Assembly: GCA_035654795.1 (NCBI GenBank)
Contig: DASRWC010000011.1
Coordinates: 9,734 to 73,733 of the forward strand
Source of the DNA: Flavobacteriaceae bacterium
GTDB lineage: Bacteria; Bacteroidota; Bacteroidia; Flavobacteriales; Flavobacteriaceae
Length of the DNA stretch: 64,000 nt
Direction of reading: 5' to 3'
Part shown: positions 4,263 through 36,173 of the stretch, in pieces
How positions within the stretch are numbered: position 1 is the stretch's first letter
How the letters are laid out: each line of letters begins with the position of its first letter
Made by a program: the position numbers and the translations under genes
Notes under the pieces: generated by a model
Database searches by the model: none
Seen by the model: only the letters and a program-made list of their open reading frames with translations
Told to the model about the DNA's origin: nothing

Positions 4263-4344
4263 ATGGAAAAAGAATTTGAAATTGAGTGGATAAAAGTAAG
4301 CAATTTTTCTAAGGTTTAGATTATGATTTCTATCGGCTGTTTTA

Positions 4345-4358
4345 ATGATAATTATCAG
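4345..4358. promoter_or_regulatory. Crp/Fnr-like palindrome ATGAT-AATT-ATCAG (perfect 12-bp core TGATAATTATCA)
   Basis: Read directly. Lies in the divergent region between the lipoprotein gene (start 4262) and the nos operon. Confidence 0.35.
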
Positions 4359-4383
4359 TTTTAGTGGTGACATTTTACGACTT

Positions 4384-4397
4384 ATGACAATAATCAT
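4384..4397. promoter_or_regulatory. Crp/Fnr-like imperfect palindrome ATGAC-AATA-ATCAT
   Basis: Read directly. One mismatch to the TGAT-N4-ATCA core. Confidence 0.25.
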
Positions 4398-4498
4398 TAT
4401 TTTTTATTCTGGATCTCTCTTTCTTTGTCTTAAAAATTTAGTAGGTCGCTAGTATATACCAAAATGAATTTTCAATAAAGGACTAATAGATCTTAAAT

Positions 4499-23303: not shown

Positions 23304-24761
23304 ATGAAAGCGTCTATGCCTAAAACAACTGCCCAAACTACATCTTTCAATCCTTTTTTAATAGGAATAATTTGCGGAATTTATCCCTTATTGTTCTATT
23401 ATTCCAACAATTTTTCGGCTATAAACACTTGGGAACATTTCGGGTTTTTTACTCTTTTTTTTATAGGTCTTCCTACCGGAGTGTTTTTATTATTGAAGAT
23501 TTTATTGAATTTTTTTCCTAAAACTGAATCTTTCCGCAACCCCATACTTTTTGTGTGTATAGTGATGTCTGTGGCTGTGCTTATGTCTTTTGCTATGTAT
23601 CTAATGCTTAAGAAGAAGGTATTAGTTCTTGTTTTTGTAATTAGCATCATTTTGGCGTGGAAGTTAGGAAACCAATATAAGAAGTTATTGATCTTGGTAT
23701 TAATAATGAGTCTCATTCCTCTAGGGAAAAATATTGTCCATATATATGAACATCAAAAACCAATGCCCTGGGCATCTCTTCCTGATGCTATTGCAGATGT
23801 TCGTTTTGTTCATAAACCAAATATATACCTCATTCAGCCGGACGGATATGTGGGGCGAACTGCTATGCGTGAAGCGCCCTATGAATTAGAAAATCCGCTT
23901 TACCCCTGGCTTGAGGAGAAAGGTTTTACCCTTTATGACGATTTTAGAAGTAATTATCCTGCGAGCCTTACTTCCAATTCCTCCATGTTTTCCATGAAGC
24001 AGCACCGATTTAATAACATGCTGTTTCCTTCAATCGAAATGCCAAATGCCCGGAATTTTATTTCCGGAACCAGTTCCGCTCTAGAGATTTTGAAATCAAA
24101 TGGATATCGCACATTTTTTATAGTGGAGGATGAGTATTTTCAACAAAATCGTCCTGAGCCGGGATATGATTTTTATAATATTAATTTTAAGGAAATACCT
24201 TATTTCAGTGATGACAACAGCGTGAAGAAAGATGTCTTTGCCGACTTAAAAAACGCCATGAAAATAAATGTCGGAGAAGCACCAAAATTCTTTTTTGTTG
24301 AAAAATTACTACCTCATCACATACATTTTATTGGAACGAAAGAAGAAGAACGTCAGAGGTATCTGGAGCGCATCCGTGAGGTCAATGAATGGATAAAAGA
24401 GACAACGCTGTATATTCAAGAGAACGATCCAACAGCACTTGTTATTTTTCTTGCCGACCACGGAGGTTGGGTGGATTTAGGAAGTTATCCGGAGATGTTT
24501 TCCATAACAAATAAAAGGCAACTAACTTCAATTTTTTCCACCCTTGCTGCCATTAAATGGAACGGATATCTTCATGACCAAAAAGATCAGGAACTGCGAA
24601 GCAATGTAAATTTATTCCGTGTTCTTTTTTCTGTTCTGAGCGATGAGGATAAATATTTAAAATATCTGGAAGACAATTCGAGTTATAACTTAAAAACGGG
24701 CACCTTTTCCAATTCTGTACGGGCTGTTTTAGATGACCACGGAAATGTGATAGCGAAGTAA
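23304..24761 (+). CDS. Membrane protein with a C-terminal alkaline-phosphatase/sulfatase-like domain
   Basis: About 5 N-terminal TM helices. The extracytoplasmic domain has IYLIQPDGY and FLADHGGW (GDHG-like) motifs. The family assignment is tentative. Confidence 0.5.
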   Translation: MKASMPKTTAQTTSFNPFLIGIICGIYPLLFYYSNNFSAINTWEHFGFFTLFFIGLPTGVFLLLKILLNFFPKTESFRNPILFVCIVMSVAVLMSFAMYLMLKKKVLVLVFVISIILAWKLGNQYKKLLILVLIMSLIPLGKNIVHIYEHQKPMPWASLPDAIADVRFVHKPNIYLIQPDGYVGRTAMREAPYELENPLYPWLEEKGFTLYDDFRSNYPASLTSNSSMFSMKQHRFNNMLFPSIEMPNARNFISGTSSALEILKSNGYRTFFIVEDEYFQQNRPEPGYDFYNINFKEIPYFSDDNSVKKDVFADLKNAMKINVGEAPKFFFVEKLLPHHIHFIGTKEEERQRYLERIREVNEWIKETTLYIQENDPTALVIFLADHGGWVDLGSYPEMFSITNKRQLTSIFSTLAAIKWNGYLHDQKDQELRSNVNLFRVLFSVLSDEDKYLKYLEDNSSYNLKTGTFSNSVRAVLDDHGNVIAK

Positions 24762-24762
24762 T

Positions 24763-25740
24763 ATGAAAACCATCGAAGTCAAAAAATATGATGCCAATCT
24801 AAAGGAGTCTTGGGATTCCTTTGTTGATAAAGCAAAAAATGCTACTTTTTTGTTTCGTCGAGACTTTATGGATTATCATAAACATCGTTTTGAAGACTAT
24901 TCTTTAATGGTCTTTGAAGGGAAAAAGTTGATGGCGGTTTTGCCTGCCAATATTGTAGGGAATTCTGTTTTTTCGCATCAAGGACTTTCCTATGGCGGAT
25001 TGGTTTTGCAACGGGAAGTGTATTTCTCTCAGGTGGTGGACATTTTTCGTGCTGTTCTTCTGTTTCTGGAAAATGATCGAAAAGAAAATTTGCACCTAAA
25101 GTTGTTGCCTCACATTTATCATAAAGTCCCTTCAGAGGAAATCGAATACCTCCTATTTATATTGAAGGCGAAGTTGGAAAGATGCGATACCGCTGCGGTG
25201 ATTGATTATAGGCATCGGTTGGAAATAAAATCTTCAAATAGGCTACGCGGAATAAAAAAAGCAATAAAAAATAAGTTGCAAATCAAAGAAGAGGTCAATT
25301 TCGAAGATTTTTGGTCAGAAGTTCTCATTCCAAATTTAAAAAGAGCACATCGCGCTTCTCCCGTTCACACAGTGGAAGAAATTGATAAATTAAGAAAAAA
25401 CTTTCCTGAGAATATCAGACAGTTTAACGTCTATTCAGGTACTGAAATTTTGGGAGGAACAACTATTTTTGAAACCAATGAAGTGGCTCATGTACAATAC
25501 ATATCGGCTACCGAGGCAGGACGAAATATGGGAGCCTTGGATCTCCTTTATGAAGTTTTGATTGACAATTTTTCACAAAAAAAATATTTTACTTTCGGGA
25601 TTTCCAATGAAGATCAGGGACAAAAAGTCAATAAAGGACTTTTGCATTGGAAAGAAACTTTTGGGGCACGCACCGTAACCCATTCCTTTTATAAAGTTGA
25701 AACAAAAAATCATCCACTTCTTAATGCCATTTACGTATGA
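24763..25740 (+). CDS. GNAT/FemAB-like acyltransferase
   Basis: 325 aa. Begins 1 nt after the previous stop and overlaps the DegT gene by 4 nt. Its position is equivalent to wecD in ECA-type loci. The fold assignment is by resemblance only. Confidence 0.55.
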
Positions 25741-26837
25741 TTCCTTTCCTGGATTTAAAAAGTATCAATAATCGATTTGAGAAAGAGTTTAATGACAGGC
25801 TCAGAAGATTTTTTGCCTCCGGGCACTATATACTGGGAAATGAGGTGCGTCTGTTTGAAACTAATTTTGCCCGTTATTGCGGTGTGCAGCATTGCATAGG
25901 TGTCGGAAACGGATTGGATGCACTCCGTCTGATTCTGGAAGGTTATAAAATTTTGGGCAAATTAAAGGCCGGAGATCGTGTATTGATAGCTGCCAACACC
26001 TTTATTGCAACGATTCTCGCCGTAAAACAAGCCGGACTTCAACCGATTCTGGTAGATGCTGATGAGCGAACCTTTAATTTTGATATGGAAAAACTGCGGG
26101 AGAAATTAACTCCGGAAGTTAAAGCTATCATGGCGGTGCATCTTTATGGACAATTAGCGCCAATGGAATCTATTTTAGAAATGGCCCGAGAACATGACCT
26201 GTTGGTTATTGAAGATGCGGCGCAAGCTCATGGAGCAGAAGACATCCACGGAAAACGTGCGGGAAATTTGGGAAATGCTGCCGGATTCAGTTTTTACCCG
26301 GGGAAAAACTTAGGTGCTCTGGGAGATGGAGGAGCTGTAACTACAAATGATGATGCTTTGGCAGAAGTGATTTCAAAACTTAGAAACTACGGAAGCATTC
26401 GCAAATATGAAAATGAATTTGTCGGATTCAATTCAAGGTTAGATGAGATTCAAGCTGTTTTTCTGAATGTGAAATTGCCATTGCTTGATGCAGATAATGC
26501 ACGAAGACGGGAGATAGCCAAACGCTATCTAAGGGAGATCAAAAACCATAAAATTGTTCTACCTTCTTTTGGCGGAGGAAAAGGGCATGTTTTTCATCTA
26601 TTTGTGGTACGGGTTCAGAAACGTCAGGATTTTATGGAACATTTAGATCGGAAAAATATCGGTCATCTTATTCATTATCCAATTCCGCCACATCAACAAA
26701 AAGCCTTGAATGAATTTTCCACCCAACACTTTCCTGCTACAGAGAAAATTCATCAAGAAGTAATTAGCCTACCCATTAGTCCGATAATGACACCGGCTGA
26801 TGTTACTCGGGTTATAGAAGCAGTAAATTCTTTTTAA
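25737..26837 (+). CDS. DegT/DnrJ/EryC1/StrS family PLP aminotransferase (sugar 4-aminotransferase, WecE-like)
   Basis: IPFLDLK N-terminus, [24 protein letters not shown] (PLP lysine), YPIPPHQQ. Confidence 0.92.
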
Positions 26838-26847
26838 AAAACGACTA

Positions 26848-28134
26848 GTGAAACTTCCCGCCTTCATACGAAACAATTTGTTGTTAAAAATGACCTCATT
26901 AAATGCGGGCGTTATTGCGGTGAGGCTGGTAATTTCGCTTTTTGTGCAGCGGCTGTTGGCGCAAATGGTCGGGGAGGCAGGGATTGCCAAAATCGGGTCG
27001 CTACGAAATCTCCTGGAAATGTTGGGATCCTTTGCTTCTGTAGGAGTTTTTAGTGGTGTCGTAAAATACGTTGCTCAATATCAAGAAGATAAAGAGCAAC
27101 TTCAAAAGCTTTTTTCCACTTCCACCGTTTTTGTTCTCTTTGGATCCCTCACTGTTTTTTGTGTTTTATTTTTCGGATCAGAATACTTCAGTCGTACCAT
27201 CTTCGAAACTGAAGATTTTGTTTACCTCATAAAATTGCTGGCCATTGTAGTTCCATTTATCGGAATTTATAGGTTATATAACGGGGTAGTCAACGGGTTG
27301 TCGAGGTATAAAAGACTCGCGAGTATCGATTTGTTCAGTTATATCGTCAGTTCGGTTTTGACCGTGATATTGCTTTTAACGCACAATCTTGACGGGGCAA
27401 TGGTAGCTATTGCGATAACTCCGGTTTTCCAATTTTTAGTTTTGCTTTTTATTTTCGGAAAAGTTCTGAAAGAATATGTTCAATTCTCTCAATTATCTTT
27501 TAAAATCCCAATGGCAAAAGAGCTATTGGCTTTTTCTTTAATGTCTTTCTTTTCAACCGTTTTATTGAATTATGTAGAGATTGATATTAGGATAATGATT
27601 CAGAACCGAATCCATATAGACGATGCAGGAATCTGGACTGCAATGACCAATATTTCCAAAAACTATATGGTATTTTCGCAAGCGGTTTTTTCCTTATATG
27701 TACTACCAAAATTTGCCGGAATTTTTACCCGCCATGAGTTCAAAAAAGAATTGCTAAGCATCTACAAAACCCTCCTTCCTCTTTTTGGAGTGGGGATGAT
27801 TCTGGTGTATGTATTGAGAGATGTTGTTATTCAAATTATTTACCCTGATTTTACAGAAATGGCTCCATTATTCAAATGGCAACTTCTGGGAGACTTTGTT
27901 CGGCTGGCGTCTCTTGTTTTGGGTTATCAGTTTTTAGCAAAAAGGCTGGTTCGGAATTTCATTTTTACCGAAATTTTATCCTTGGCACTTTTTTATGGAT
28001 TCTCCTACTACCTAACAGGCATCTATGGCGTGGAAGGTGTTGTAATGGCTCATTTTTTTAGATATCTAATATACTTTGTTGTGGTGCTGGTTTTGGTGCT
28101 TCGCTATTTTAGAAAAAACAAAATATTATTATAA
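26848..28134 (+). CDS. Wzx-type polysaccharide/O-antigen flippase (WzxE-like)
   Basis: About 12 TM helices of the MOP superfamily. Follows the aminotransferase as in the wecE-wzxE arrangement. GTG start at 26848; alternative ATG at 26890. Confidence 0.8.
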   Translation: MKLPAFIRNNLLLKMTSLNAGVIAVRLVISLFVQRLLAQMVGEAGIAKIGSLRNLLEMLGSFASVGVFSGVVKYVAQYQEDKEQLQKLFSTSTVFVLFGSLTVFCVLFFGSEYFSRTIFETEDFVYLIKLLAIVVPFIGIYRLYNGVVNGLSRYKRLASIDLFSYIVSSVLTVILLLTHNLDGAMVAIAITPVFQFLVLLFIFGKVLKEYVQFSQLSFKIPMAKELLAFSLMSFFSTVLLNYVEIDIRIMIQNRIHIDDAGIWTAMTNISKNYMVFSQAVFSLYVLPKFAGIFTRHEFKKELLSIYKTLLPLFGVGMILVYVLRDVVIQIIYPDFTEMAPLFKWQLLGDFVRLASLVLGYQFLAKRLVRNFIFTEILSLALFYGFSYYLTGIYGVEGVVMAHFFRYLIYFVVVLVLVLRYFRKNKILL

Positions 28135-28239
28135 GACCAACAACATCAGGAAGAATAACAAATAGTTTAAATATTTCCCGGATCAATTTCTGACCGGGCT
28201 ATACTTTTTGCAAATTCAAAATTTTCGTATTTTTGAAGC

Positions 28240-28638
28240 ATGAAAAACTTTGTCGCCATACTTCTATCTACCCTTATCCTTACTCAAGGGGCGGGACTTG
28301 GTGTAGGCGACATTTTACTTTTTGGCCGGCTTCTGGAACACGCTCAGTGCCATTCAGAAAATTATGGAGATGATTTTTTGACATTTTTAGCAGAACATTA
28401 CGGGCCGTTGTATTCAGAGCATAAAGATGCACACGGAGAGGATGATTCCCATCATAAACACCTTCCTTTTCATCATGACCAATGTCATCATTCCATTGCA
28501 GAAGTAATCGTTTATTCTTATGAATTCCCGATTGAGCGTGCGTATTTACCAATTATTTCTGACTCCAATTTCTTTTATCTGGATTTACATTCTTCCTTTG
28601 AAAAGACACCGCTTTTCCAACCTCCCAAAATTGCATAA
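28240..28638 (+). CDS. Small His-rich protein with an N-terminal hydrophobic segment, first gene of the czc-like operon
   Basis: 132 aa. HAQCHSENYG, EHKDAHGEDDSHHKHLPFHHDQCHHS. No family recognised. Confidence 0.55.
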   Translation: MKNFVAILLSTLILTQGAGLGVGDILLFGRLLEHAQCHSENYGDDFLTFLAEHYGPLYSEHKDAHGEDDSHHKHLPFHHDQCHHSIAEVIVYSYEFPIERAYLPIISDSNFFYLDLHSSFEKTPLFQPPKIA

Positions 28639-28751: not shown

Positions 28752-31700
28752 ATGCTTTCAAAAATTATTCGGTTTAGTATAAACCACAAATTGATTATAG
28801 GGCTTTTTACCCTGGCATTGATCGGAGTTGGAATTTATGCACTAACTCAAATTACGATTGGTGCCGTTCCCGATGTCACTAATAATCAGGTTCAAGTAAT
28901 CACAACTTCCAAAAATCTTTCCACTCAAGATATGGAGCAATATGTTACATATCCTATTGAGCTGGAAATGGTCAATCTTCCCGGAGTGAAAGAAATTCGC
29001 TCCATAACCCGTTTCGGTTTGTCTGTTGTTACCATTGTTTTTCATGACAACATGGGAACTTACTTGCCTCGTCAATTGATAGCTGAAAAGATTCTTTCAG
29101 CTTCTGAGCATATTCCCGAAGGATTTGGTACTCCTGAAATGGCACCAATAACAACAGGACTCGGAGAAATATATCAATATACCCTAGAGGTTGAGCCCGA
29201 ATTTAAAAACAAATATTCTGATATGGACTTACGTACCATTCAGGATTGGATTGTAAAACGCCAGCTCTCGGGTATTCCGGGTGTAGTTGAAATAAATACA
29301 TGGGGTGGGCATTTAAAACAATATGAAGTGGCTATTCGCACCAATCGGTTAAACGCTATGAATATAACCATTCAGGATGTTTACACCGCCCTTGAAAAAA
29401 ACAACAGCCTATCCGGCGGCGGATATATCGAACGCGAGAATCAGGCGTATTTTATTCGAGGAGAAGGATTGGTGAAAACGCTGGAAGATATCGAAAACAT
29501 CGTTGTTAAAAACAACAACGGAATTCCGGTTTTTATCAGAGATGTGGCCCATGTCCATTTCGGATCTGCTGTTCGTTTTGGAGCCGTTACAGGGAACGGA
29601 GAAGGAGAAAAAGTAATGGGCCAAATCTTGATGCTAAAAGATGGCGATTCACACAAAATTATCAATGATATTAAAAAACGGGTGGAATTAATTTCAGAGA
29701 ATCTGCCTGAAGGAGTATATATCAACCCTTTTCTGGAAAGAAGTGAACTCCTAGACAAAACTACTTCTACAGTTGCAGAAAATTTGATATTGGGGATCTT
29801 GATTGTAATTTTTGTGGTTGTTCTTCTTTTTGGAAATCTACGTTCAGGATTTGTTGTTGCCTCTGTTATTCCATTATCACTTCTCTTTACGCTCTCCATG
29901 ATGTATCTTTTTAATCTGGATGCCAACTTAATGAGTATGGGGGCCATAGATTTTGGAATCATCATTGACGGAGCAGTTATTATCGTAGAATTTGTCGCCT
30001 TTCAAATTGCAAAAAATTCAGCTTCACTCAATGCTCTACCGCCTCAAGAAAAACAGGCTGCAAAAGATGCCATTACCGAAGAAAGTGCAACCACAATGAT
30101 GAATGCGGCTGTTTTTGGCCAGTTGATTATTCTGATTGTATTCATACCCATTTTGTCCTTAGGTGGAGTAGAAGGAAAGATGTTTCGTCCCATGGCCTTA
30201 ACTTTCAGCTTTGCACTTGTTGGCGCAATGATTCTTTGTTTTACATACGTCCCTATGGCCGCTGCTTTGTTTTTGAAACCCAACAAAAAAGAGAAGAGAA
30301 ACTTTTCAGACAGACTTATGGATAAAATCAGAAATTGGTATGACCCTGTAATCCGTAAGGCTTTAAGAGCCAAAAAACTCGTCCTCGCTGTGGCAGCAGG
30401 TATTCTTGTGGCTACGACATTTTTATTTTCCGGTATGGGATCAGAATTCGTTCCGCAGCTAGACGAAGGAGATTTCGTGATTCAGCCTGTATTAAGAACC
30501 GGAACTTCGTTAAGCAATACTATTGAAATTACAACTCAGATAGAGAAAATCCTTTTAGAAAACTTTCCCGAAGTCGATCAGGTGGTGAGCAGAATTGGAG
30601 CTGCAGAAGTGCCTACAGATCCAATGGCTATGGAAGAAAGCGATATTGTGATTAACCTAAAACCAAAGAAAGAATGGACCTCGGCGAAAACAAAAAATGA
30701 GCTTGCAGATAAATTTAAGGAAGCCCTGGAGGTAATCCCGGGAATGGATGTAGAGTTTACTCAGCCAATAGAAATGCGGTTTAACGAACTTATTACCGGA
30801 GTGCGTGCAGATATTGCAATCAAAATCTTCGGAGAAGATATGGAGTTTCTTGCCGAGAAAGCGAACGAAATCAAAAACTTAATTGAAGATGTTGAAGGAG
30901 CCGACGATATTATTGTTGAAAAAGTTATTGGACTTCCGGAAATGCGAGTTGCCTTTGACAGAGCAAAAATTGCCCGCTTCGGATTGAACACTGCCGATTT
31001 AAATGATATTATCGCAATGGGTTTTGCAGGAAAAACCGCCGGAAGTATTTTTGAAGGAGAAAGGCGTTATGATATCGTGCTCAGGCTTGATGAGGATAGT
31101 AGAAAAGACATCTCAAGTCTTGAGAATCTTTATGTAGATACACCTTCAGGCGGAAAAGTTCCTCTTCGTGAGCTCGCAGAAATTACTTACGCTAAGGGGG
31201 CTGCCAAAATTTCGCGAGACGATACAAAACGACGTATTGTAGTAGGTGTAAATGTGCGTAGCCGGGATCTACAAAGTGTGGTGGACGATGTCCGGAAAAG
31301 AATTCATGACAACATCCATCTTCCTGCAGGATACACCATAGAATACGGCGGACAATTTGAGAATTTACAATCGGCCAAGCTTCGATTGTTTATTGCTGTT
31401 CCCGTGGCACTGGTTCTCATTTTTATCCTTCTCTATTTTGCCTTTCATTCGGTTAAAAAAGCTTTAATCATCTATGCGGTAATTCCTCTTGCTGCTGTGG
31501 GAGGTGTGCTTCTCTTGTGGCTTCGAGATATGCCCTTTAGTATTTCTGCCGGAGTAGGATTTATTGCTTTATTTGGAATTGCAGTGCTGAACGGAATTGT
31601 GCTATTAGAACATTTTAAAGAGCTGAAAGCTTCGGGACTGACAGATCCTGAAGAATTAATTATAACAGGAACAAAAGATCGATTACGAGCGGTTATCCTT

Positions 31701-33092
31701 ACAGCCTCTGCTGCTGCTCTGGGATTCTTGCCTATGGCTGTTTCAGGAAGTGCAGGGGCGGAAGTGCAAAGACCTCTCGCCACAGTGGTTATTGGAGGAC
31801 TTGTGAGTGCTACCATTTTGACCCTCGTGGTGCTTCCCGTGTTATATTCCATCTACGAAGGCGGCGGTTTTAAGGGGAAGCATAAAAATAGTAGAGTGAA
31901 TAAAAAATTCATTTCAGTGGTTCTACTCCTTCTGTGTTTCAGCGGATATCAAGTTGTCAATGCACAAGAACAATCGCTGGAAGATCTTCAATTTTTGGCT
32001 CGTAAAAATAACCTGGGTTTAAAAGCTTTGGGTATAGAACGTGACGAAGCCAAAGCGCTCATTGGGTCTGCTTTTTCATTGGACAAAACAGAGTTGTTCT
32101 ATGAATATGACGAAAACAATATTGCTCCAAATAATTTACCGCTGAGAGTGTGGGGAATCGCTCAGGATTTTTCATTTCCAACGGTATATTTCGCCGAGCG
32201 AAAGGTTCTGAAACAACAACATATGCTTCAAAACAGCTTGTTTGAATTGAAATCTTTTATTCTTGATGGACAGGTAGCTGCGGCTTATTATCAGTTTTTG
32301 TATCAGAAAAACAAGGAAGATGTTTACGTGAAACTTGATAGTCTCTATCAAAATTTTTCAAAGGCAGCCGACAGACGATTTGAGTTAGGTGAAACCAATT
32401 ACCTGGAAAAAATAACTGCCAGAGCCAAACAACGCGAACTTCAGGCAGAATTATCTGCAAGTTCGGAAGAGGTCATTTTAGCTCTGGAGAAATTAAAAAT
32501 CTTGACACAATCTGATGGTCCCATAAAACCGAAGGTAAAAGTTTTGGAGCGAATATTATTGGATACCTTAATGACCACAACACATCCGGGAAGCGTCCTT
32601 TATAAGAATCAAAACGAATTGTTCCGATACCGAAGCAATCTTGAGAAACAACAATTACTTCCGGATTTTTCAATTTCCTATGGGATGGGAAGCAATCCCT
32701 CTCTGAATGAAAATCTTTACTCCTATCAAATCGGATTAAAAATCCCTCTGTTTTTTGGAGGAAAAGCTTCAAAAATAAAAGCAGCGCGTGTGGCTCAAGA
32801 AGCATCTGAAGTGCAGGCGGCAGATTTCGAGACGCAACTTTCGTCAAGGAGAAGACAACTTTTAAACGAATTGAGGAAATATGAAGAATCGCTTGCTTAT
32901 TATGATGAAGAAGGAAAAGAACTTTCAGAACAGATATTACGTACAGCTACAGGAAGTTTTCAAAATGGAGAAATAGATTTCTTTCAGTACATCCAAAGTC
33001 TGGAAAACGTGTATTCCATTGAACTTCGCCGGCTAGAGAACCTTAATAATTACAACCAAACCATAATTGCCCTTACCTATATAAATCTATAA
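28752..33092 (+). CDS. CzcA-type HME-RND efflux pump fused in frame to a TolC/CzcC-like outer-membrane factor
   Basis: 1446 aa. Residues 1 to about 1035 form a 12-TM RND pump with the TM4 motif DFGIIIDGAVIIVE (divalent-cation DFG-DGA-VE type). The linker is GGGFKGKHKNSR. A signal-peptide-like segment VNKKFISVVLLLLCFSGYQVVNA|QEQ follows. After it comes about 395 aa of two-repeat OEP/TolC-like sequence. Confidence 0.9.
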   Translation: MLSKIIRFSINHKLIIGLFTLALIGVGIYALTQITIGAVPDVTNNQVQVITTSKNLSTQDMEQYVTYPIELEMVNLPGVKEIRSITRFGLSVVTIVFHDNMGTYLPRQLIAEKILSASEHIPEGFGTPEMAPITTGLGEIYQYTLEVEPEFKNKYSDMDLRTIQDWIVKRQLSGIPGVVEINTWGGHLKQYEVAIRTNRLNAMNITIQDVYTALEKNNSLSGGGYIERENQAYFIRGEGLVKTLEDIENIVVKNNNGIPVFIRDVAHVHFGSAVRFGAVTGNGEGEKVMGQILMLKDGDSHKIINDIKKRVELISENLPEGVYINPFLERSELLDKTTSTVAENLILGILIVIFVVVLLFGNLRSGFVVASVIPLSLLFTLSMMYLFNLDANLMSMGAIDFGIIIDGAVIIVEFVAFQIAKNSASLNALPPQEKQAAKDAITEESATTMMNAAVFGQLIILIVFIPILSLGGVEGKMFRPMALTFSFALVGAMILCFTYVPMAAALFLKPNKKEKRNFSDRLMDKIRNWYDPVIRKALRAKKLVLAVAAGILVATTFLFSGMGSEFVPQLDEGDFVIQPVLRTGTSLSNTIEITTQIEKILLENFPEVDQVVSRIGAAEVPTDPMAMEESDIVINLKPKKEWTSAKTKNELADKFKEALEVIPGMDVEFTQPIEMRFNELITGVRADIAIKIFGEDMEFLAEKANEIKNLIEDVEGADDIIVEKVIGLPEMRVAFDRAKIARFGLNTADLNDIIAMGFAGKTAGSIFEGERRYDIVLRLDEDSRKDISSLENLYVDTPSGGKVPLRELAEITYAKGAAKISRDDTKRRIVVGVNVRSRDLQSVVDDVRKRIHDNIHLPAGYTIEYGGQFENLQSAKLRLFIAVPVALVLIFILLYFAFHSVKKALIIYAVIPLAAVGGVLLLWLRDMPFSISAGVGFIALFGIAVLNGIVLLEHFKELKASGLTDPEELIITGTKDRLRAVILTASAAALGFLPMAVSGSAGAEVQRPLATVVIGGLVSATILTLVVLPVLYSIYEGGGFKGKHKNSRVNKKFISVVLLLLCFSGYQVVNAQEQSLEDLQFLARKNNLGLKALGIERDEAKALIGSAFSLDKTELFYEYDENNIAPNNLPLRVWGIAQDFSFPTVYFAERKVLKQQHMLQNSLFELKSFILDGQVAAAYYQFLYQKNKEDVYVKLDSLYQNFSKAADRRFELGETNYLEKITARAKQRELQAELSASSEEVILALEKLKILTQSDGPIKPKVKVLERILLDTLMTTTHPGSVLYKNQNELFRYRSNLEKQQLLPDFSISYGMGSNPSLNENLYSYQIGLKIPLFFGGKASKIKAARVAQEASEVQAADFETQLSSRRRQLLNELRKYEESLAYYDEEGKELSEQILRTATGSFQNGEIDFFQYIQSLENVYSIELRRLENLNNYNQTIIALTYINL

Positions 33093-33099
33093 TAAGAAG

Positions 33100-34248
33100 A
33101 TGAAAAATTTTTTATATATCGTTTTTGCTTTATTGCTTGTCAATTGCGGAAAACAACAAACTGCTGAAGAGTTGACCCCACACGGGAAAGATGTAGATGA
33201 AGAGATTATTGTTGTGACCAAAGCTCAATTTTTATCGGCTAAGATGACGCTTGGAACTTTTGAAGAGAAGCCTTTTGCAGAATTTGTTCGCGCAAACGGG
33301 ATAATCAATGTTCCTCCTCAAAACCGAGCTATAATCAGTGCATTTGCCGGAGGGTTTGTAAAAGATCTGCCGGTTCAAGTGGGAGCTGCCATAGCCAAAG
33401 GACAACGTATCGTCACTCTTGAAAATCCGGAATTTATAGTACTCCAGCAACAGTATGTAGAACTTGCCGAACAATTGAACTACTTAAAATCTGAATATGA
33501 ACGGCAGCAGGTCATGTTAAACGAGAAAATAACGTCGCAGAAAAGTTTTTTAAAATCTGAAAGTGATTACAAATCTGCTCTGGCCAGAGTGAACAGTTTG
33601 AAAAAGAATCTGGAGATGTTGAATATAAGTCCGACTGCTGCAGCAAATGGACTTATCACTTCAAATGCGGGTATTTCCAGCCCAATTTCCGGGTATGTTA
33701 CCAATGTTTGGGTTATTCGTGGCGCCTATGTTTCTCCCTCAGATCCTGTGATGGAGGTGGTCAATACAGATGAAATTCTTCTAGAGCTGAAAGTTTTTGA
33801 AAAAGATTTAATGCAGGTCGAAAAGGAACAAGAAATTCTTTTTCGAATTCCTGAAGTTTCTAAAGAAATTTTTCACGGAACAGTTACGTTGATAGGAACC
33901 TCAATCGATTCCAATTCCAGAATGGCCACGGTTTTAGGAAAGATCCGCAATAAAGAGAATTATAACTTTTCTACCGGAATGTTTGTAGAAGCTGATATTG
34001 TTACTTCGGAAATAACCTATAATGCCATCCCGGAAAATGCAGTGGTAGAATTTGAAGGAGAAAATTACGTTTTGGTTTTACAGAAGGAAGAAAATGATTC
34101 CTATCAATTTTTACCGATGAAAGTCACTGTTGGTGCCTCTTATAAAGGCTATGTGATTATTGAAAATGACAAGGATTTTGGTCCCGATGCAAAAATCTTA
34201 ACAAAAGGAGGCTTTGTATTGCTTAAAGAAGGCGGCGGGGACCACTAA
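33100..34248 (+). CDS. Efflux RND periplasmic adaptor (CzcB/HlyD family) lipoprotein
   Basis: Lipobox LLVNC|GKQ. Barrel-sandwich and coiled-coil hairpin pattern. Starts 7 nt after the RND/OMF gene. Confidence 0.88.
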   Translation: MKNFLYIVFALLLVNCGKQQTAEELTPHGKDVDEEIIVVTKAQFLSAKMTLGTFEEKPFAEFVRANGIINVPPQNRAIISAFAGGFVKDLPVQVGAAIAKGQRIVTLENPEFIVLQQQYVELAEQLNYLKSEYERQQVMLNEKITSQKSFLKSESDYKSALARVNSLKKNLEMLNISPTAAANGLITSNAGISSPISGYVTNVWVIRGAYVSPSDPVMEVVNTDEILLELKVFEKDLMQVEKEQEILFRIPEVSKEIFHGTVTLIGTSIDSNSRMATVLGKIRNKENYNFSTGMFVEADIVTSEITYNAIPENAVVEFEGENYVLVLQKEENDSYQFLPMKVTVGASYKGYVIIENDKDFGPDAKILTKGGFVLLKEGGGDH

Positions 34249-34291: not shown

Positions 34292-34336
34292 CCGGCTGTT
34301 GATATGGATTTCTCTCATCAACAGCCGGTTTTTTTA
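34292..34336 (+). terminator. Intrinsic terminator after the czc-like operon
   Basis: Perfect 12-bp stem CCGGCTGTTGAT (34292-34303) / ATCAACAGCCGG (34317-34328), followed by T7. The T-tract overlaps the stop codon of the convergent gene. Confidence 0.85.
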
Positions 34337-34720
34337 TAATCTCAATTGAAGATAACCTTTTTGCTGAAGACGTAATGCATCGGTAAATGCATTTTCCACC
34401 ACTTCCATACGTTCAGGAATGTCAGTTTTTTTAAGTCCTAGTTTCTGCATAGACAGTTTGCAAACAGCCAATTCTACCTTGTATTTCATAGCATAATCTC
34501 TGAAAGTTTGTAGCTTGTCGTCATTTAATTCTCGTAATGCCGGACCATAAAAAACGATGCGGAAATGTCCGTCTCGAAATTCAGATGTGGCTACTTGCAT
34601 TACAGCATCTGCCATATTGAGATCTGACATAAGTATCACATAATCCGTTGTCGCACTTTTTTCCTGGGCAAATATTCCAAGATTCATTAGCAGCAAACAG
34701 AAGAATAAAATCTTTCTCAT
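34334..34720 (-). CDS. Secreted DsrE/DsrF-like family protein (tentative)
   Basis: Signal peptide MRKILFFCLLLMNLGIFAQ. IVFYGPAL..ELAVCKLS..GYLQLRL layout resembles YchN/DsrE-fold proteins. Paralog of the adjacent gene. Confidence 0.5.
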   Translation of the reverse strand: MRKILFFCLLLMNLGIFAQEKSATTDYVILMSDLNMADAVMQVATSEFRDGHFRIVFYGPALRELNDDKLQTFRDYAMKYKVELAVCKLSMQKLGLKKTDIPERMEVVENAFTDALRLQQKGYLQLRL

Positions 34721-34730
34721 ATTGCCATTT

Positions 34731-35165
34731 TTAAAGAGTGAGACTTAAGAAACCTTTATTCTGCATTTGCAGATCATGCAAAACAGCATTGTCAATAATT
34801 TTAACGGTATCTTCAAAAGGAGATGAATCTACCTTAAAGGCTTTTAAAGAATAACCGCAAATAAGCAAATTCACCTTATGATCTCCCGCATTCTTAATCA
34901 TCTCTTCAATTTCTGTCGGTTTTATATCTTTTACCGCATCACCATAAATTACTAAATCAAATTGACCGAACTCTTTTTCTTTTCCGGCCAGGGTTTTGGC
35001 GGTCATAAAAATTGAGGGAAGTTGTTCTAAATTCTTTGTGAGAACAACATAATTAAATGTCTTTTCGTTTTCTACAGAAACGGTTTGCGCAGAGAGCATT
35101 TTTACTTGAGCATTTCCTGAGATGCATACCAAAAAGAACAACAATGTGCTGATAAAGGTTTTCAT
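34731..35165 (-). CDS. Secreted DsrE/DsrF-like family protein (tentative)
   Basis: Signal peptide ending GNAQ. LVIYGDAV..LLICGYSL..GFLSLTL is parallel to the downstream paralog. Confidence 0.5.
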   Translation of the reverse strand: MKTFISTLLFFLVCISGNAQVKMLSAQTVSVENEKTFNYVVLTKNLEQLPSIFMTAKTLAGKEKEFGQFDLVIYGDAVKDIKPTEIEEMIKNAGDHKVNLLICGYSLKAFKVDSSPFEDTVKIIDNAVLHDLQMQNKGFLSLTL

Positions 35166-35333: not shown

Positions 35334-36173
35334 ATGATTAAAAAAATATTAGTTCCGACAGATTTTTCCAAATCCTCAGAAAATGCGCTGGAGGTGGCAG
35401 CGGCCATTGCTAAACATCACGATGCTGAAATCATTCTTCTTCATATGATGGGTCTTGCTGACGGTATGGCAACAAAAAGTGATCAGCAAGAAGTTTTTAA
35501 AGCTTTATATTTCATGCGCTATGCCGAGCAACAATTTCAAAAATTGATGGAGAAAGAATACCTGCAAGGTGTTCAGATAACTGATACTGTTCACAACTAT
35601 GTAAATTTTAGCGAGATCAACACGGTATCCAGAGAGGTGGGCGCACATCTTATAGTTATGGGATCACACGGGGCAACCGGATTAAAAGAAGTTTTTGTGG
35701 GAAGTAACACAGAAAAAGTGGTACGCACATCAGATGTTCCTGTACTTGTAATTAAACATCAAACAACCAATTTCACCCCAAAATTGGGAGTTTTTGCTTG
35801 TGATTTTCAATCTGCGGCCGTAGGACCCTACAAACGAGCCAAAAGAATGTTTGAACTTCTCGGTCTTGAGATGCAACTTCTATATATCAATCTGGCAGGA
35901 GATTTTAGAAGCACACGTGAAATTGAAAAACGAATTATTAAGTTCTTGACCGATGCCGGCGAGGACAATCCGGTAATGACTGCAAATAAAGTTATTCAAT
36001 ATAACGACTACTCCGTAGAAGCCGGAATTTTCGCTTACAGTCAAGTAGCAAATGCCGATTTGATTGCCTTACCCACAGCAGGACGTCAAGGATTAGCACA
36101 TTTCTTCTCCGGAAGTATTGGAGAAGACGTAGTGAATCATTCAGATTTACCGGTGATGACTTTCCGCGTTTAA
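35334..36173 (+). CDS. Universal stress protein family, two-domain
   Basis: ILVPTDFSKSSENALEVA N-terminus, MGSHGATGLKEVFVGSNT (G-x2-G-x9-GS), DVPVLVIK. The second domain ends LPVMTFRV. Confidence 0.9.
   Translation: MIKKILVPTDFSKSSENALEVAAAIAKHHDAEIILLHMMGLADGMATKSDQQEVFKALYFMRYAEQQFQKLMEKEYLQGVQITDTVHNYVNFSEINTVSREVGAHLIVMGSHGATGLKEVFVGSNTEKVVRTSDVPVLVIKHQTTNFTPKLGVFACDFQSAAVGPYKRAKRMFELLGLEMQLLYINLAGDFRSTREIEKRIIKFLTDAGEDNPVMTANKVIQYNDYSVEAGIFAYSQVANADLIALPTAGRQGLAHFFSGSIGEDVVNHSDLPVMTFRV

What the first reader, a model, noticed from the sequence alone, without database searches (positions are those of the whole stretch)
31860..31964. Inner-membrane CzcA pump and outer-membrane factor encoded as one 1446-aa ORF, with a retained internal signal peptide and an in-frame GTG
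After RND TM12 (..VVLPVLYSIYE) comes a short linker, GGGFKGKHKNSR. It runs directly into VNKKFISVVLLLLCFSGYQVVNA|QEQ, a textbook Sec signal peptide with an AxA-like cleavage site. A complete TolC/CzcC-like OMF follows. A single polypeptide cannot stay in both membranes. Either the signal-like segment acts as a 13th TM helix and is cleaved, releasing the OMF into the periplasm. Or the OMF is also made separately from the in-frame GTG at 31896..31898, which is preceded by an A-rich tract. Both other reading frames carry stop codons at the junction (TAA, TAG, TAG and TAA in one frame, TGA in the other). The fusion could therefore be a recent or artefactual 1-nt frame change. The operon order (small His-rich protein, pump::OMF, adaptor) also differs from the classical czcCBA order.
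Basis: partly seen in the sequence, partly recalled or inferred. Interest (0 to 1): 0.7.

Follow-up and report, generated by a model that had tools for sequence, protein, structure and literature searches.

The report
Metal pump and exit duct fused
A marine Flavobacteriaceae bacterium, like dozens of related genera, encodes its inner-membrane metal-efflux pump and the matching outer-membrane channel as one 1446-residue protein, joined by an internal signal peptide that is most likely cut after export so the channel can move to the outer membrane.

Summary
ORF 28752..33092 (+) encodes a full CzcA/ZneA-type RND pump (aa 1-1036), a 16-aa basic linker, a signal-peptide-like segment (aa 1053-1071, ...VNA|QEQ) and a complete TolC-fold outer-membrane factor (aa 1072-1446).

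It is not an artefact or a recent frameshift. A second assembly and read-derived protein fragments show the same frame. In 74 of 80 related species genomes, covering at least 26 Flavobacteriaceae genera, the same 1438-1483-codon frame is uninterrupted. Divergent relatives, including a Prolixibacteraceae MAG, are also fused.

Across these proteins the junction sequence varies but its layout does not. A 13-20 aa positively charged linker is followed by a short hydrophobic stretch and then [A/G/S]-Gln (74/75). That is the Bacteroidetes "Q-rule" signal peptidase I site, also seen in 5 of 5 ordinary type-I signal peptides in this window. An in-frame start codon in the linker is missing in 24/75 orthologs, so internal initiation cannot be the general route.

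Best explanation (about 0.75): a polyprotein in which the internal signal peptide acts as TM13, exports the channel domain and is cut by signal peptidase I. No description of this was found in the literature. Cleavage itself has not been tested.

The parts
28228..28235 (+). Bacteroidetes-type -7 promoter-like motif TATTTTTG, 4 nt before the first gene of the module (weak, consensus match only)
   Evidence: Regex scan. There are 27 such motifs on the + strand of the 64-kb window. None lies near the junction; the next one is at 31046, inside the RND body.
28240..28638 (+). Small His-rich protein (132 aa) with a hydrophobic N-terminus; first gene of the conserved module; function unknown
   Evidence: No Pfam or NCBIfam match. 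A homolog lies directly upstream of the fused gene in 72/80 related loci.
28752..33092 (+). Fused czcA::OMF gene, 1446 aa plus stop
   Evidence: The exact protein is NCBI HZW76866.1. A second assembly gives the same length with one substitution.
28752..31859 (+). HME-RND pump domain (aa 1-1036), 12-TM CzcA/ZneA/CusA type, ending with TM12 ...LPVLYSIYE
   Evidence: TIGR00914 scores 1136 bits over aa 1-1036. End-to-end matches to ZneA 4k0e (E 3e-194) and CusA 3k07 (E 2e-165). The TM4 motif AIDFGIIIDGAVIIVEF is visible.
31860..31907 (+). Cytoplasmic basic linker, which is also the n-region of the internal signal peptide (GGGFKGKHKNSRVNKK, aa 1037-1052)
   Evidence: In orthologs the segment scored (which includes 3 residues after the LPVLY motif) is 13-20 aa with a mean net charge of +3.8. 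It has low pLDDT and no secondary structure in the AF2 model.
31896..31898 (+). In-frame GTG (V1049), a candidate internal start codon; not conserved among orthologs
   Evidence: A start codon is absent from the linker in 24/75 orthologs.
31908..31964 (+). Internal signal peptide h- and c-regions (FISVVLLLLCFSGY QVVNA, aa 1053-1071), predicted TM13 with N-in/C-out orientation; predicted signal peptidase I cut after A1071
   Evidence: -1 is A/G/S and +1 is Q in 74/75. The AF2 model places a helix at model residues 34-47, which are aa 1051-1064. The site follows the Q-rule (PMC5837995). The window's own signal peptides also end in [AGS]|Q.
31965..33092 (+). Mature outer-membrane factor (aa 1072-1446, 375 aa, N-terminal Gln) plus stop codon; TolC fold
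   Evidence: Pfam OEP matches twice. AF2 gives pLDDT 90.3 and pTM 0.80 with two repeats of 2 strands plus long helices. Foldseek matches TolC, CusC, OprM and SilC at E 1e-16 to 1e-18 and TM 0.63-0.72. The mature length is constant at 375-380 aa in orthologs.
33100..34248 (+). Periplasmic adaptor (MFP, CzcB/CusB-like, 382 aa) with a lipoprotein-like N-terminus (…LLVNC)
   Evidence: HlyD_D23 E 1.5e-30 and TIGR01730 E 2e-39. It lies directly downstream in 80/80 related loci.

Best explanation
The gene encodes a natural polyprotein of a tripartite heavy-metal efflux system.

1. The CzcA-type RND pump (12 TM helices, C-terminus in the cytoplasm) is inserted co-translationally.
2. The short Lys/Arg-rich linker stays in the cytoplasm.
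3. The following hydrophobic segment inserts N-in/C-out as a 13th helix. It works as an internal Sec signal peptide and starts translocation of the C-terminal 375-residue TolC-fold domain into the periplasm.
4. Signal peptidase I cuts after VNA(1071). The pump keeps a 35-residue tail that includes TM13, and a free outer-membrane factor with N-terminal Gln is released. Following the Bacteroidetes Q-rule, this Gln is probably cyclised to pyroglutamate.
5. The factor then trimerises in the outer membrane and docks, through the adaptor encoded by the next gene, onto the pump.

The fusion gives equimolar synthesis of pump and duct, which matches the 3:3 stoichiometry of the assembled complex.

Shown here: the domain identities, the reality and deep conservation of the fusion, the conserved signal-peptide and cleavage-site layout, and the non-conservation of internal start codons.

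Inferred: membrane topology (from homology to ZneA/CusA and the positive-inside rule), the cleavage itself, pyroglutamate formation, and divalent-cation (Zn/Co/Cd-type) specificity.
For: (a) The fusion is real and old.
- The exact 1446-aa protein is in NCBI. A second contig has one substitution, and read-derived fragments cross the junction in frame, including a variant.
- 74/80 species-level genomes have an uninterrupted 1438-1483-codon frame that aligns to residues 1-1446 at 62-73% identity. Three more are cut by contig ends, and three have breaks elsewhere in the RND body.
- Among the 50%-identity representatives, 57 cross the junction in one frame. They include full-length proteins with 30-32% identity to the window's C-terminal 429 aa, and one comes from a Prolixibacteraceae MAG.

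(b) The junction behaves like a signal peptide under selection.
- Its sequence is free to vary, but every ortholog keeps a basic linker, a hydrophobic stretch and a c-region (about 17 aa together for the last two).
- Position -1 is A (60), G (8) or S (6), position -3 is small or aliphatic, and +1 is Q in 74/75.
- The cleavage site sits at a fixed 375-380 residues from the C-terminus.

(c) This is the Bacteroidetes signal peptidase I signature (PMC5837995). The five ordinary type-I signal peptides encoded in this window end the same way.

(d) The one verified split relative, Lacinutrix algicola, starts its separate OMF gene exactly at this n-region: MKKKSIITIIILLLTFNIQA|QNKP. The pump's TGA overlaps the ATG there. 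The segment is therefore homologous to a working N-terminal signal peptide.

(e) Only about 4 residues lie between the predicted cut and the first helix of a confidently modelled TolC fold. An uncleaved chain therefore cannot place the barrel in the outer membrane.

(f) Internal start codons are dispensable: none in 24/75 orthologs and ATG in only 27/75.

(g) The RND part matches 12-TM ZneA/CusA structures end to end. Their C-termini are cytoplasmic (established knowledge), which gives the orientation a signal peptide needs.

(h) Precedent, from my own knowledge: Bradyrhizobium japonicum fbcH encodes a cytochrome b/c1 precursor that is split at an internal signal peptide (Thony-Meyer et al. 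1989, listed in the references seen).
Against: - There is no experimental evidence of cleavage for any member of this family.
- No signal-peptide predictor or proteomics data could be consulted.
- In this window an in-frame GTG in an A-rich context leaves room for some separate initiation.
- One ortholog (L052) lacks a recognisable [AGS]Q site.
- The topology of TM12 and TM13 is inferred, not tested.
- The library of papers is incomplete, so an existing description may have been missed.
Confidence: 0.75

Rival explanations
1. Internal translation initiation: the OMF, with its own signal peptide, is translated separately from the in-frame GTG at 31896 (ATG in some relatives). The full-length fusion is then a minor or non-functional product.
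For: - The GTG is in frame. Among the 99 in-frame ATG/GTG/TTG codons of the ORF it is tied for the most A-rich 20-nt upstream context.
- Bacteroidetes initiate without Shine-Dalgarno sequences, at A-rich unstructured sites (my own knowledge).
- 27/75 orthologs keep an ATG 3-7 codons before the h-region.
- The split Lacinutrix gene starts at this position.
Against: - 24/75 fused orthologs have no ATG, GTG or TTG anywhere in the linker. Examples are Aequorivita lipolytica L012, Arenibacter amylolyticus L016, L020 and L022.
- Within the 'KMNKK' clade the Met is replaced by Ile (L056, L078), Pro (L037) or Val (L074) while the fusion is kept.
- The A-richness follows from the Lys/Asn codons that a positively charged n-region requires.
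- There is no Bacteroidetes -7 promoter motif near the junction.
- Ribosomes translating the pump would read through into the OMF anyway, so the fused chain still has to be dealt with.
Confidence: 0.12
2. The fusion is never cleaved. The TolC-like domain stays tethered to the inner membrane through TM13 and works in a non-canonical way, for example as a periplasmic extension of the pump.
For: No experiment shows cleavage. A hydrophobic segment that follows TM12 could in principle serve as a permanent anchor.
Against: - The -3/-1/+1 cleavage signature is conserved in 74/75 orthologs, while the rest of the segment drifts. A plain anchor would not need that signature.
- The h-region is short, about 17 aa together with the polar c-region.
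- Only about 4 residues link it to the first OMF helix.
- The model has a complete four-strand barrel segment typical of outer-membrane insertion.
- A split relative uses the same segment as an N-terminal signal peptide.
Confidence: 0.06
3. Assembly or sequencing artefact, or a recent inactivating 1-nt frame change that joined two genes.
For: The linker is A-rich, and such homopolymer runs are prone to indels. One relative is split and differs by a 1-nt frame change in an A run.
Against: - The same frame appears in an independent contig and in read-derived fragments.
- The frame is uninterrupted in 74/80 species genomes, including complete isolate genomes.
- The 'split' database entries that were examined are themselves mostly long-read frameshift artefacts.
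Confidence: 0.02

Closest known systems
CzcCBA / ZneCAB / CusCBA heavy-metal RND tripartite efflux systems (Cupriavidus metallidurans, E. coli)
   Same: - It has the same three components: an HME-RND pump, a membrane-fusion adaptor and a TolC-fold outer-membrane factor.
- The RND part matches ZneA (4k0e, E 3e-194) and CusA (3k07, E 2e-165) end to end.
- It reaches the TIGR00914 cut-off.
- The OMF model matches CusC, SilC, TolC and OprM.
   Different: - The pump and the OMF are one ORF joined by an internal signal peptide.
- The gene order is small protein, A::C, B rather than C-B-A.
- The OMF is short (375 aa mature). It has no lipoprotein Cys and no detectable sequence match to any PDB OMF.
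- A conserved small His-rich protein of unknown function leads the operon.
Bradyrhizobium japonicum FbcH cytochrome b/c1 precursor (polyprotein split at an internal signal peptide)
   Same: In both, a polytopic inner-membrane protein whose C-terminus is cytoplasmic is followed in the same ORF by a signal peptide and an exported protein. Two mature proteins of one complex then come from one gene in 1:1 ratio. This comparison rests on my own knowledge; the 1989 paper appears in the reference list seen.
   Different: - The protein families are unrelated.
- In FbcH both products stay at the inner membrane. Here the released product has to cross the periplasm and be inserted into the outer membrane.
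- Cleavage is experimentally shown for FbcH and is only inferred here.
Bacteroidetes Sec/SPI signal peptides obeying the Q-rule (PMC5837995, PMC10653852)
   Same: It has a positively charged n-region, a short h-region, small residues at -3 and -1, and Gln at +1. This matches the ordinary signal peptides encoded in this window and the stand-alone Lacinutrix OMF.
   Different: It begins about 1040 residues into the protein, after 12 TM helices, and not at the N-terminus. After cleavage it would stay attached to the pump rather than being released and degraded.
Split czcA + OMF gene pair of Lacinutrix algicola (L081)
   Same: It is an orthologous module with the same gene order. Its OMF is 43% identical to the window's, and the signal peptide sits in the same alignment columns.
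   Different: The pump gene ends at a TGA that overlaps the OMF ATG (ATGA). This is a 1-nt frame difference within an A run relative to its fused relatives.

Membership tests
HME-RND pump (CusA/CzcA family, TIGR00914 / Pfam ACR_tran) | Full-length match to the family model above the curated cut-off | tested here: met
   TIGR00914 scores 1136 bits against a cut-off of 701, covering model positions 1-1036 of 1051. ACR_tran scores E 2.6e-276.
HME-RND pump (CusA/CzcA family, TIGR00914 / Pfam ACR_tran) | 12-TM architecture with two large periplasmic loops, collinear with solved HME pumps | tested here: met
   Single end-to-end alignments to ZneA 4k0e (query 1-1036 to chain 1-1016) and CusA 3k07. 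This is at sequence level only; no topology predictor was run.
HME-RND pump (CusA/CzcA family, TIGR00914 / Pfam ACR_tran) | Charged TM4 relay motif (DFG-DGA-VEN type in divalent-cation pumps; motif recalled from Nies 2003) | tested here: met
   AIDFGIIIDGAVIIVEF is present in the translation. Both Asp and the Glu are present, and the final Asn is Phe. Assignment to a metal-specificity class is an inference.
HME-RND pump (CusA/CzcA family, TIGR00914 / Pfam ACR_tran) | Metal efflux activity | not testable with these tools
   No functional data are available.
Outer-membrane factor (TolC / OEP, PF02321) | Two OEP repeats | tested here: met
   Pfam OEP scores E 2e-22 in two stretches. The TIGR01844 TolC model is only weakly matched and falls below its cut-off.
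Outer-membrane factor (TolC / OEP, PF02321) | TolC protomer fold: 2 x (two beta-strands plus long coiled helices) | tested here: met
   AF2 gives pLDDT 90.3 and pTM 0.80, with strands at model residues 96-107, 113-123, 288-297 and 305-313 and helices of up to 69 residues. Foldseek matches TolC, CusC, OprM, SilC, CmeC, VceC and MtrE at E 1e-12 to 1e-18.
Outer-membrane factor (TolC / OEP, PF02321) | Own N-terminal export signal on a separate polypeptide | tested here: not met
   The signal is present but internal, after 1036 residues of pump. It is N-terminal only in the split Lacinutrix relative.
Outer-membrane factor (TolC / OEP, PF02321) | N-terminal lipoprotein Cys (NodT/CusC/OprM subclass) | tested here: not met
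   No Cys is conserved at or after the cleavage site. The mature N-terminus is Gln in 74/75 orthologs.
Outer-membrane factor (TolC / OEP, PF02321) | Trimer forming a 12-strand barrel in the outer membrane | not tested
   Only a monomer was modelled.
Sec / signal peptidase I signal peptide (Bacteroidetes Q-rule type) | Positive n-region, 7-15 aa h-region, polar c-region | tested here: met
   The window reads KGKHKNSRVNKK / FISVVLLLLCFSGY / QVVNA. In orthologs the linker has a mean net charge of +3.8, and h plus c average 16.7 aa.
Sec / signal peptidase I signal peptide (Bacteroidetes Q-rule type) | Small uncharged residues at -3 and -1, Gln at +1 | tested here: met
   Position -1 is A (60), G (8) or S (6). 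Position -3 is G, V, I, S, A, M, L or T, with one F. Position +1 is Q in 74/75. Divergent fused representatives show the same pattern, as do 5/5 ordinary signal peptides of the window.
Sec / signal peptidase I signal peptide (Bacteroidetes Q-rule type) | Located at the N-terminus of the precursor | tested here: not met
   It starts at about residue 1041 of 1446.
Sec / signal peptidase I signal peptide (Bacteroidetes Q-rule type) | Actual cleavage by signal peptidase I | not testable with these tools
   This needs N-terminal proteomics or western blots.
Bacterial membrane polyproteins split at an internal signal peptide (FbcH type) | Upstream polytopic membrane protein ending in the cytoplasm, then signal peptide, then exported partner of the same complex | tested here: met
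   The cytoplasmic C-terminus of TM12 is inferred from ZneA/CusA homology and from the basic linker.
Bacterial membrane polyproteins split at an internal signal peptide (FbcH type) | Two mature products demonstrated | not testable with these tools
   No experimental data are available.

The most novel reading that the evidence does not exclude
The fusion is not merely tolerated. It would be a distinct biogenesis route in which an outer-membrane channel is born from the C-terminus of its own inner-membrane pump. Obligatory co-synthesis would give strict 1:1 dosage in bacteria that lack Shine-Dalgarno-based translational coupling. The duct would be released next to its cognate pump (assembly in cis). 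The signal peptide would remain as a permanent 13th helix of the pump, possibly with an accessory role like that of the small helix AcrZ on AcrB.
Probability: 0.2. Interest if true: 0.8.

Novelty: new variant of a known kind. Interest (0 to 1): 0.58.

Why it matters
Tripartite efflux pumps are normally described as three separately made proteins. In a large group of environmental Bacteroidota, the inner- and outer-membrane parts are instead made as one chain.

If cleavage is confirmed, three things follow:
- It would be a widespread natural case of an outer-membrane beta-barrel protein released from a polytopic inner-membrane precursor by signal peptidase.
- It would give a ready-made system to study internal signal-peptide processing, stoichiometric control without Shine-Dalgarno coupling, and how a channel finds its pump.
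- It would add a 13th helix to an RND pump.

There is also a practical point for annotation. These genes are labelled only 'CusA/CzcA family RND transporter', so the outer-membrane factor is invisible in functional inventories. In addition, the A-rich linker causes spurious 'split' gene calls in long-read assemblies.

Tried and rejected
- **Artefact or recent frameshift.** Rejected on the basis.
- **Fusion/fission history.** I tried to count fusion and fission events on an NJ tree of 108 representative OMF domains. It needed 31 changes against 36 for shuffled labels, so it was uninformative. DNA-level inspection then showed why: four of six 'stand-alone' OMFs examined come from contigs full of frame breaks (L085-L088), and one sits behind an IS1595 transposase with no pump (L083). 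Only Lacinutrix (L081/L082) is a clean split. Protein-database 'stand-alone' counts (55 of 157) are therefore unreliable and I do not use them.
- **PDB sequence searches with the OMF.** A single-sequence search and a 12-sequence profile search both found nothing. Only the fold search identified the family.
- **Lipoprotein-type OMF.** The window has a Cys in the h-region (LLLLCFSG), but it is not conserved, so this is rejected.
- **'GTGA' as a relic of a start/stop overlap**. N and K codons after the start make NTGA likely by chance, so this is not used as evidence.
- **Literature.** Ten full-text searches and readings of the 2021 Chem Rev review of tripartite pumps, the OMP-family survey and a mutant-fitness survey found no description of a natural RND-OMF fusion. 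The library is incomplete, so this is absence of evidence only.
- **Exact-sequence contig look-up.** It found nothing for the window protein.
- **Internal promoter near the junction.** None was found with the Bacteroidetes -7 consensus. This is a weak test.
Full report
**1. The observation**

Window 28752..33092 (+) is one ATG-to-TAA ORF of 1446 codons.
- Residues 1-1036 are a complete heavy-metal RND pump. Pfam ACR_tran covers aa 5-1034 (E 2.6e-276). NCBIfam TIGR00914 'CusA/CzcA family' scores 1136 bits against a cut-off of 701. The part aligns end to end with ZneA 4k0e (E 3e-194) and CusA 3k07 (E 2e-165).
- After TM12 (...LPVLYSIYE) comes GGGFKGKHKNSRVNKK, then FISVVLLLLCFSGY, then QVVNA|QEQ.
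- The remaining 375 residues hit Pfam OEP twice (E 2e-22).
- An AlphaFold2 model of aa 1018-1446, built on 68 sequences, has pLDDT 90.3 and pTM 0.80. It shows the TM12 helix, an unstructured low-confidence linker, a helix over the hydrophobic segment, and then a TolC protomer of two repeats of two strands plus very long helices.
- Foldseek finds TolC, CusC, OprM, SilC, CmeC, VceC and MtrE at E 1e-12 to 1e-18 and TM 0.6-0.7. Sequence searches of the PDB find nothing.
- The in-frame GTG is at 31896. The other two frames carry five stops and one stop across the junction.
- The flanking genes are a 132-aa His-rich protein and a CzcB/CusB-type adaptor.

Every factual element of the finding is therefore confirmed.

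**2. Not an artefact, and not recent**

- The exact protein is NCBI HZW76866.1, from a Flavobacteriaceae MAG. A second contig (91.6 kb, ENA) encodes the same 1446 aa with one substitution. Read-derived protein fragments from another data set cross the junction in frame, including a variant with two substitutions.
- A scan of one genome per species with an OMF profile returned 80 loci. These come from at least 26 named genera, including Aequorivita, Arenibacter, Maribacter, Mariniflexile, Polaribacter, Tamlana, Algibacter, Kordia, Gillisia, Salegentibacter and Aquimarina. Several are complete isolate genomes.
- In 74 of the 80 the stop-to-stop frame that covers pump plus OMF is uninterrupted (1438-1483 codons). 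It aligns to window residues 1-1446 at 62-73% identity.
- Three loci are cut by contig ends. Three have frame breaks within the RND-coding part, upstream of the linker (one of them, L059, about 30 residues before its end).
- The module small protein, fused gene, adaptor is conserved (72/80 and 80/80).
- An exhaustive search of 1.84 billion cluster representatives found 235 relatives of the C-terminal 429 aa at E<=1e-30. Among the best 150, 57 cross the junction in one frame, counting representatives only. They include full-length proteins of 1447-1457 aa that share only 30-32% identity with the window's C-terminal 429 aa. One comes from a Prolixibacteraceae MAG, which is outside the Flavobacteriaceae.

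**3. What the junction looks like across relatives**

- The sequence between TM12 and the OMF is poorly conserved, but its architecture is invariant.
- The segment scored between the TM12 motif and the hydrophobic stretch is 13-20 residues long. It is rich in Lys and Arg, with a mean net charge of +3.8.
- A hydrophobic stretch and a polar c-region follow, about 17 residues together.
- Then comes A (60), G (8) or S (6), followed directly by Gln in 74 of 75 proteins. Position -3 is small or aliphatic.
- This site lies at a constant 375-380 residues from the C-terminus.
- The pattern is the signal peptidase I signature of Bacteroidetes, the 'Q-rule' (PMC5837995).
- The organism itself follows the rule. 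The five clear type-I signal peptides encoded elsewhere in the window end in G|Q, S|Q, A|Q, A|Q and A|Q.
- A plain membrane anchor would have no reason to keep positions -3, -1 and +1 while everything else drifts.

**4. Internal start codon**

- Only 27/75 orthologs have an ATG in the linker. 51/75 have any of ATG, GTG or TTG, and 24/75 have none.
- In the clade where the linker reads ...KEIKMNKK..., the Met is Ile, Pro or Val in some species that still keep the fusion.
- Separate initiation therefore cannot be what keeps this architecture working.
- In this window the GTG sits in an A-rich context, tied for the richest of 99 in-frame candidate codons. That richness follows from the Lys/Asn codons of the n-region.
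- No Bacteroidetes -7 promoter motif lies nearby. One sits 4 nt before the first gene of the module.

**5. Split relatives**

- Lacinutrix algicola has pump (1041 aa) and OMF (396 aa) as two genes. The pump's TGA overlaps the OMF's ATG (…AWFEEKKTLK* / MKKKSIITIIILLLTFNIQA|QNKP). An independent assembly shows the same arrangement.
- Compared with fused relatives (…KELKMNKK…), this is a 1-nt frame difference in an A run.
- The internal segment of the fused proteins is therefore homologous to a functioning N-terminal signal peptide. The free OMF is the working form.
- Most other 'stand-alone' OMFs in protein databases are not real. Four that I traced to DNA lie on contigs riddled with frame breaks, one of them broken inside the signal peptide itself. 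A fifth follows an IS1595 transposase with no pump.
- This also explains why a tree-based count of fusion and fission events was meaningless.

**6. Mechanism**

- RND pumps have both termini in the cytoplasm (established for CusA, ZneA and AcrB).
- A basic linker followed by a short hydrophobic segment will insert N-in/C-out. It will then start Sec-dependent translocation of what follows, just as an N-terminal signal peptide does.
- The model shows only about four residues between the predicted cut and the first OMF helix. That helix pair (about 33 residues) leads up to the barrel strands.
- An uncleaved chain therefore cannot have its barrel in the outer membrane while TM13 sits in the inner membrane.

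The most likely course (confidence about 0.75) is:
1. Co-translational insertion of the pump.
2. Export of the OMF domain through TM13.
3. Cleavage by signal peptidase I after A1071.
4. Probable cyclisation of Gln1072.
5. Trimerisation and outer-membrane insertion of the 375-aa OMF.
6. Assembly with the adaptor encoded next.

The pump would keep a 35-residue tail with a 13th helix. The lack of sequence conservation in that helix argues against a specific structural role, but does not exclude one.

The benefit of the fusion is plausibly fixed 1:1 dosage. This may matter especially in a phylum without Shine-Dalgarno-based coupling; that last point is an inference.

The nearest mechanistic precedent I know is the cytochrome b/c1 precursor FbcH of Bradyrhizobium japonicum (my own knowledge; reference seen).

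**7. Rivals**

- Internal initiation as the main route: 0.12.
- A permanently uncleaved, inner-membrane-tethered TolC-like domain: 0.06.
- Artefact or recent frameshift: 0.02.

**8. Comparison with what is known, and novelty**

- The components are ordinary members of the HME-RND, OMF and MFP families.
- Three things are unusual: the covalent pump-OMF fusion with an internal cleavable signal, the gene order, and the conserved small His-rich leader gene.
- The proteins are in public databases by the hundreds, but are named only as CusA/CzcA transporters.
- Ten full-text searches and three papers read found no description of the fusion. The library is incomplete.
- I rate it a new variant of a known kind. 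It is real, widespread and mechanistically interesting, and the key step, cleavage, is still untested.

Noticed in passing
window 28240..28638 (+): A 132-aa His-rich protein (HxxxH, HHKH and HHDQCHH patches) with a hydrophobic N-terminus and no Pfam or NCBIfam match. It is conserved directly upstream of the fused pump gene in 72/80 related loci. It may be a periplasmic metal-binding or regulatory partner of the pump.
   Followed up: partly
window 28228..28235 (+): A Bacteroidetes-type -7 promoter motif TATTTTTG lies only 4 nt before the ATG at 28240, with a TTTG 17 nt further upstream. This suggests a very short or leaderless mRNA for the operon. It is a consensus match only.
   Followed up: no
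L085 4400..4600; L086, L087, L088 (whole loci): 'Stand-alone' OMF proteins in public protein sets that resemble this one often come from long-read contigs with many frame breaks. In L085 the break lies inside the signal-peptide h-region. The A-rich linker and neighbouring homopolymers make this gene prone to false splitting.
   Followed up: yes
L081 5990..6010 (Lacinutrix algicola), also L082: This is a genuine split version of the same module. The pump's stop TGA overlaps the OMF ATG (ATGA). A P-type ATPase gene follows the adaptor (L081 8442..10418).
   Followed up: yes
L083 4982..5899 and L084 1295..2212: An IS1595-family transposase gene sits directly upstream of an OMF-plus-adaptor pair that has no pump gene. 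The pump part seems to have been lost through the insertion.
   Followed up: no
L036 (Maribacter halichondriae complete genome) about 4300..4400; L027 about 3276; L059 about 4872: These loci have frame breaks within the RND-coding part of otherwise orthologous fused genes (in L059 close to its 3' end). They may be pseudogenes or sequencing errors.
   Followed up: no
window 16623 (+), 17971 (+), 19172 (-), 52591 (-), 54561 (-): All five clear type-I signal peptides encoded in the window end in [A/G/S]|Gln. This organism therefore follows the Bacteroidetes Q-rule.
   Followed up: yes
window 34334..35165 (-) and 35334..36173 (+): Two adjacent DsrE-like genes and a tandem universal-stress-protein gene lie just downstream of the efflux module, on the opposite and the same strand respectively. 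No link to the pump was examined.
   Followed up: no
window 23304..28134 (+): Just upstream of the module is a polysaccharide-biosynthesis block: a sulfatase-like gene, a DegT/DnrJ aminotransferase and a Polysacc_synt flippase. PheT and BipA lie further out. The module is therefore in an ordinary chromosomal context and not on an obvious mobile element.
   Followed up: partly
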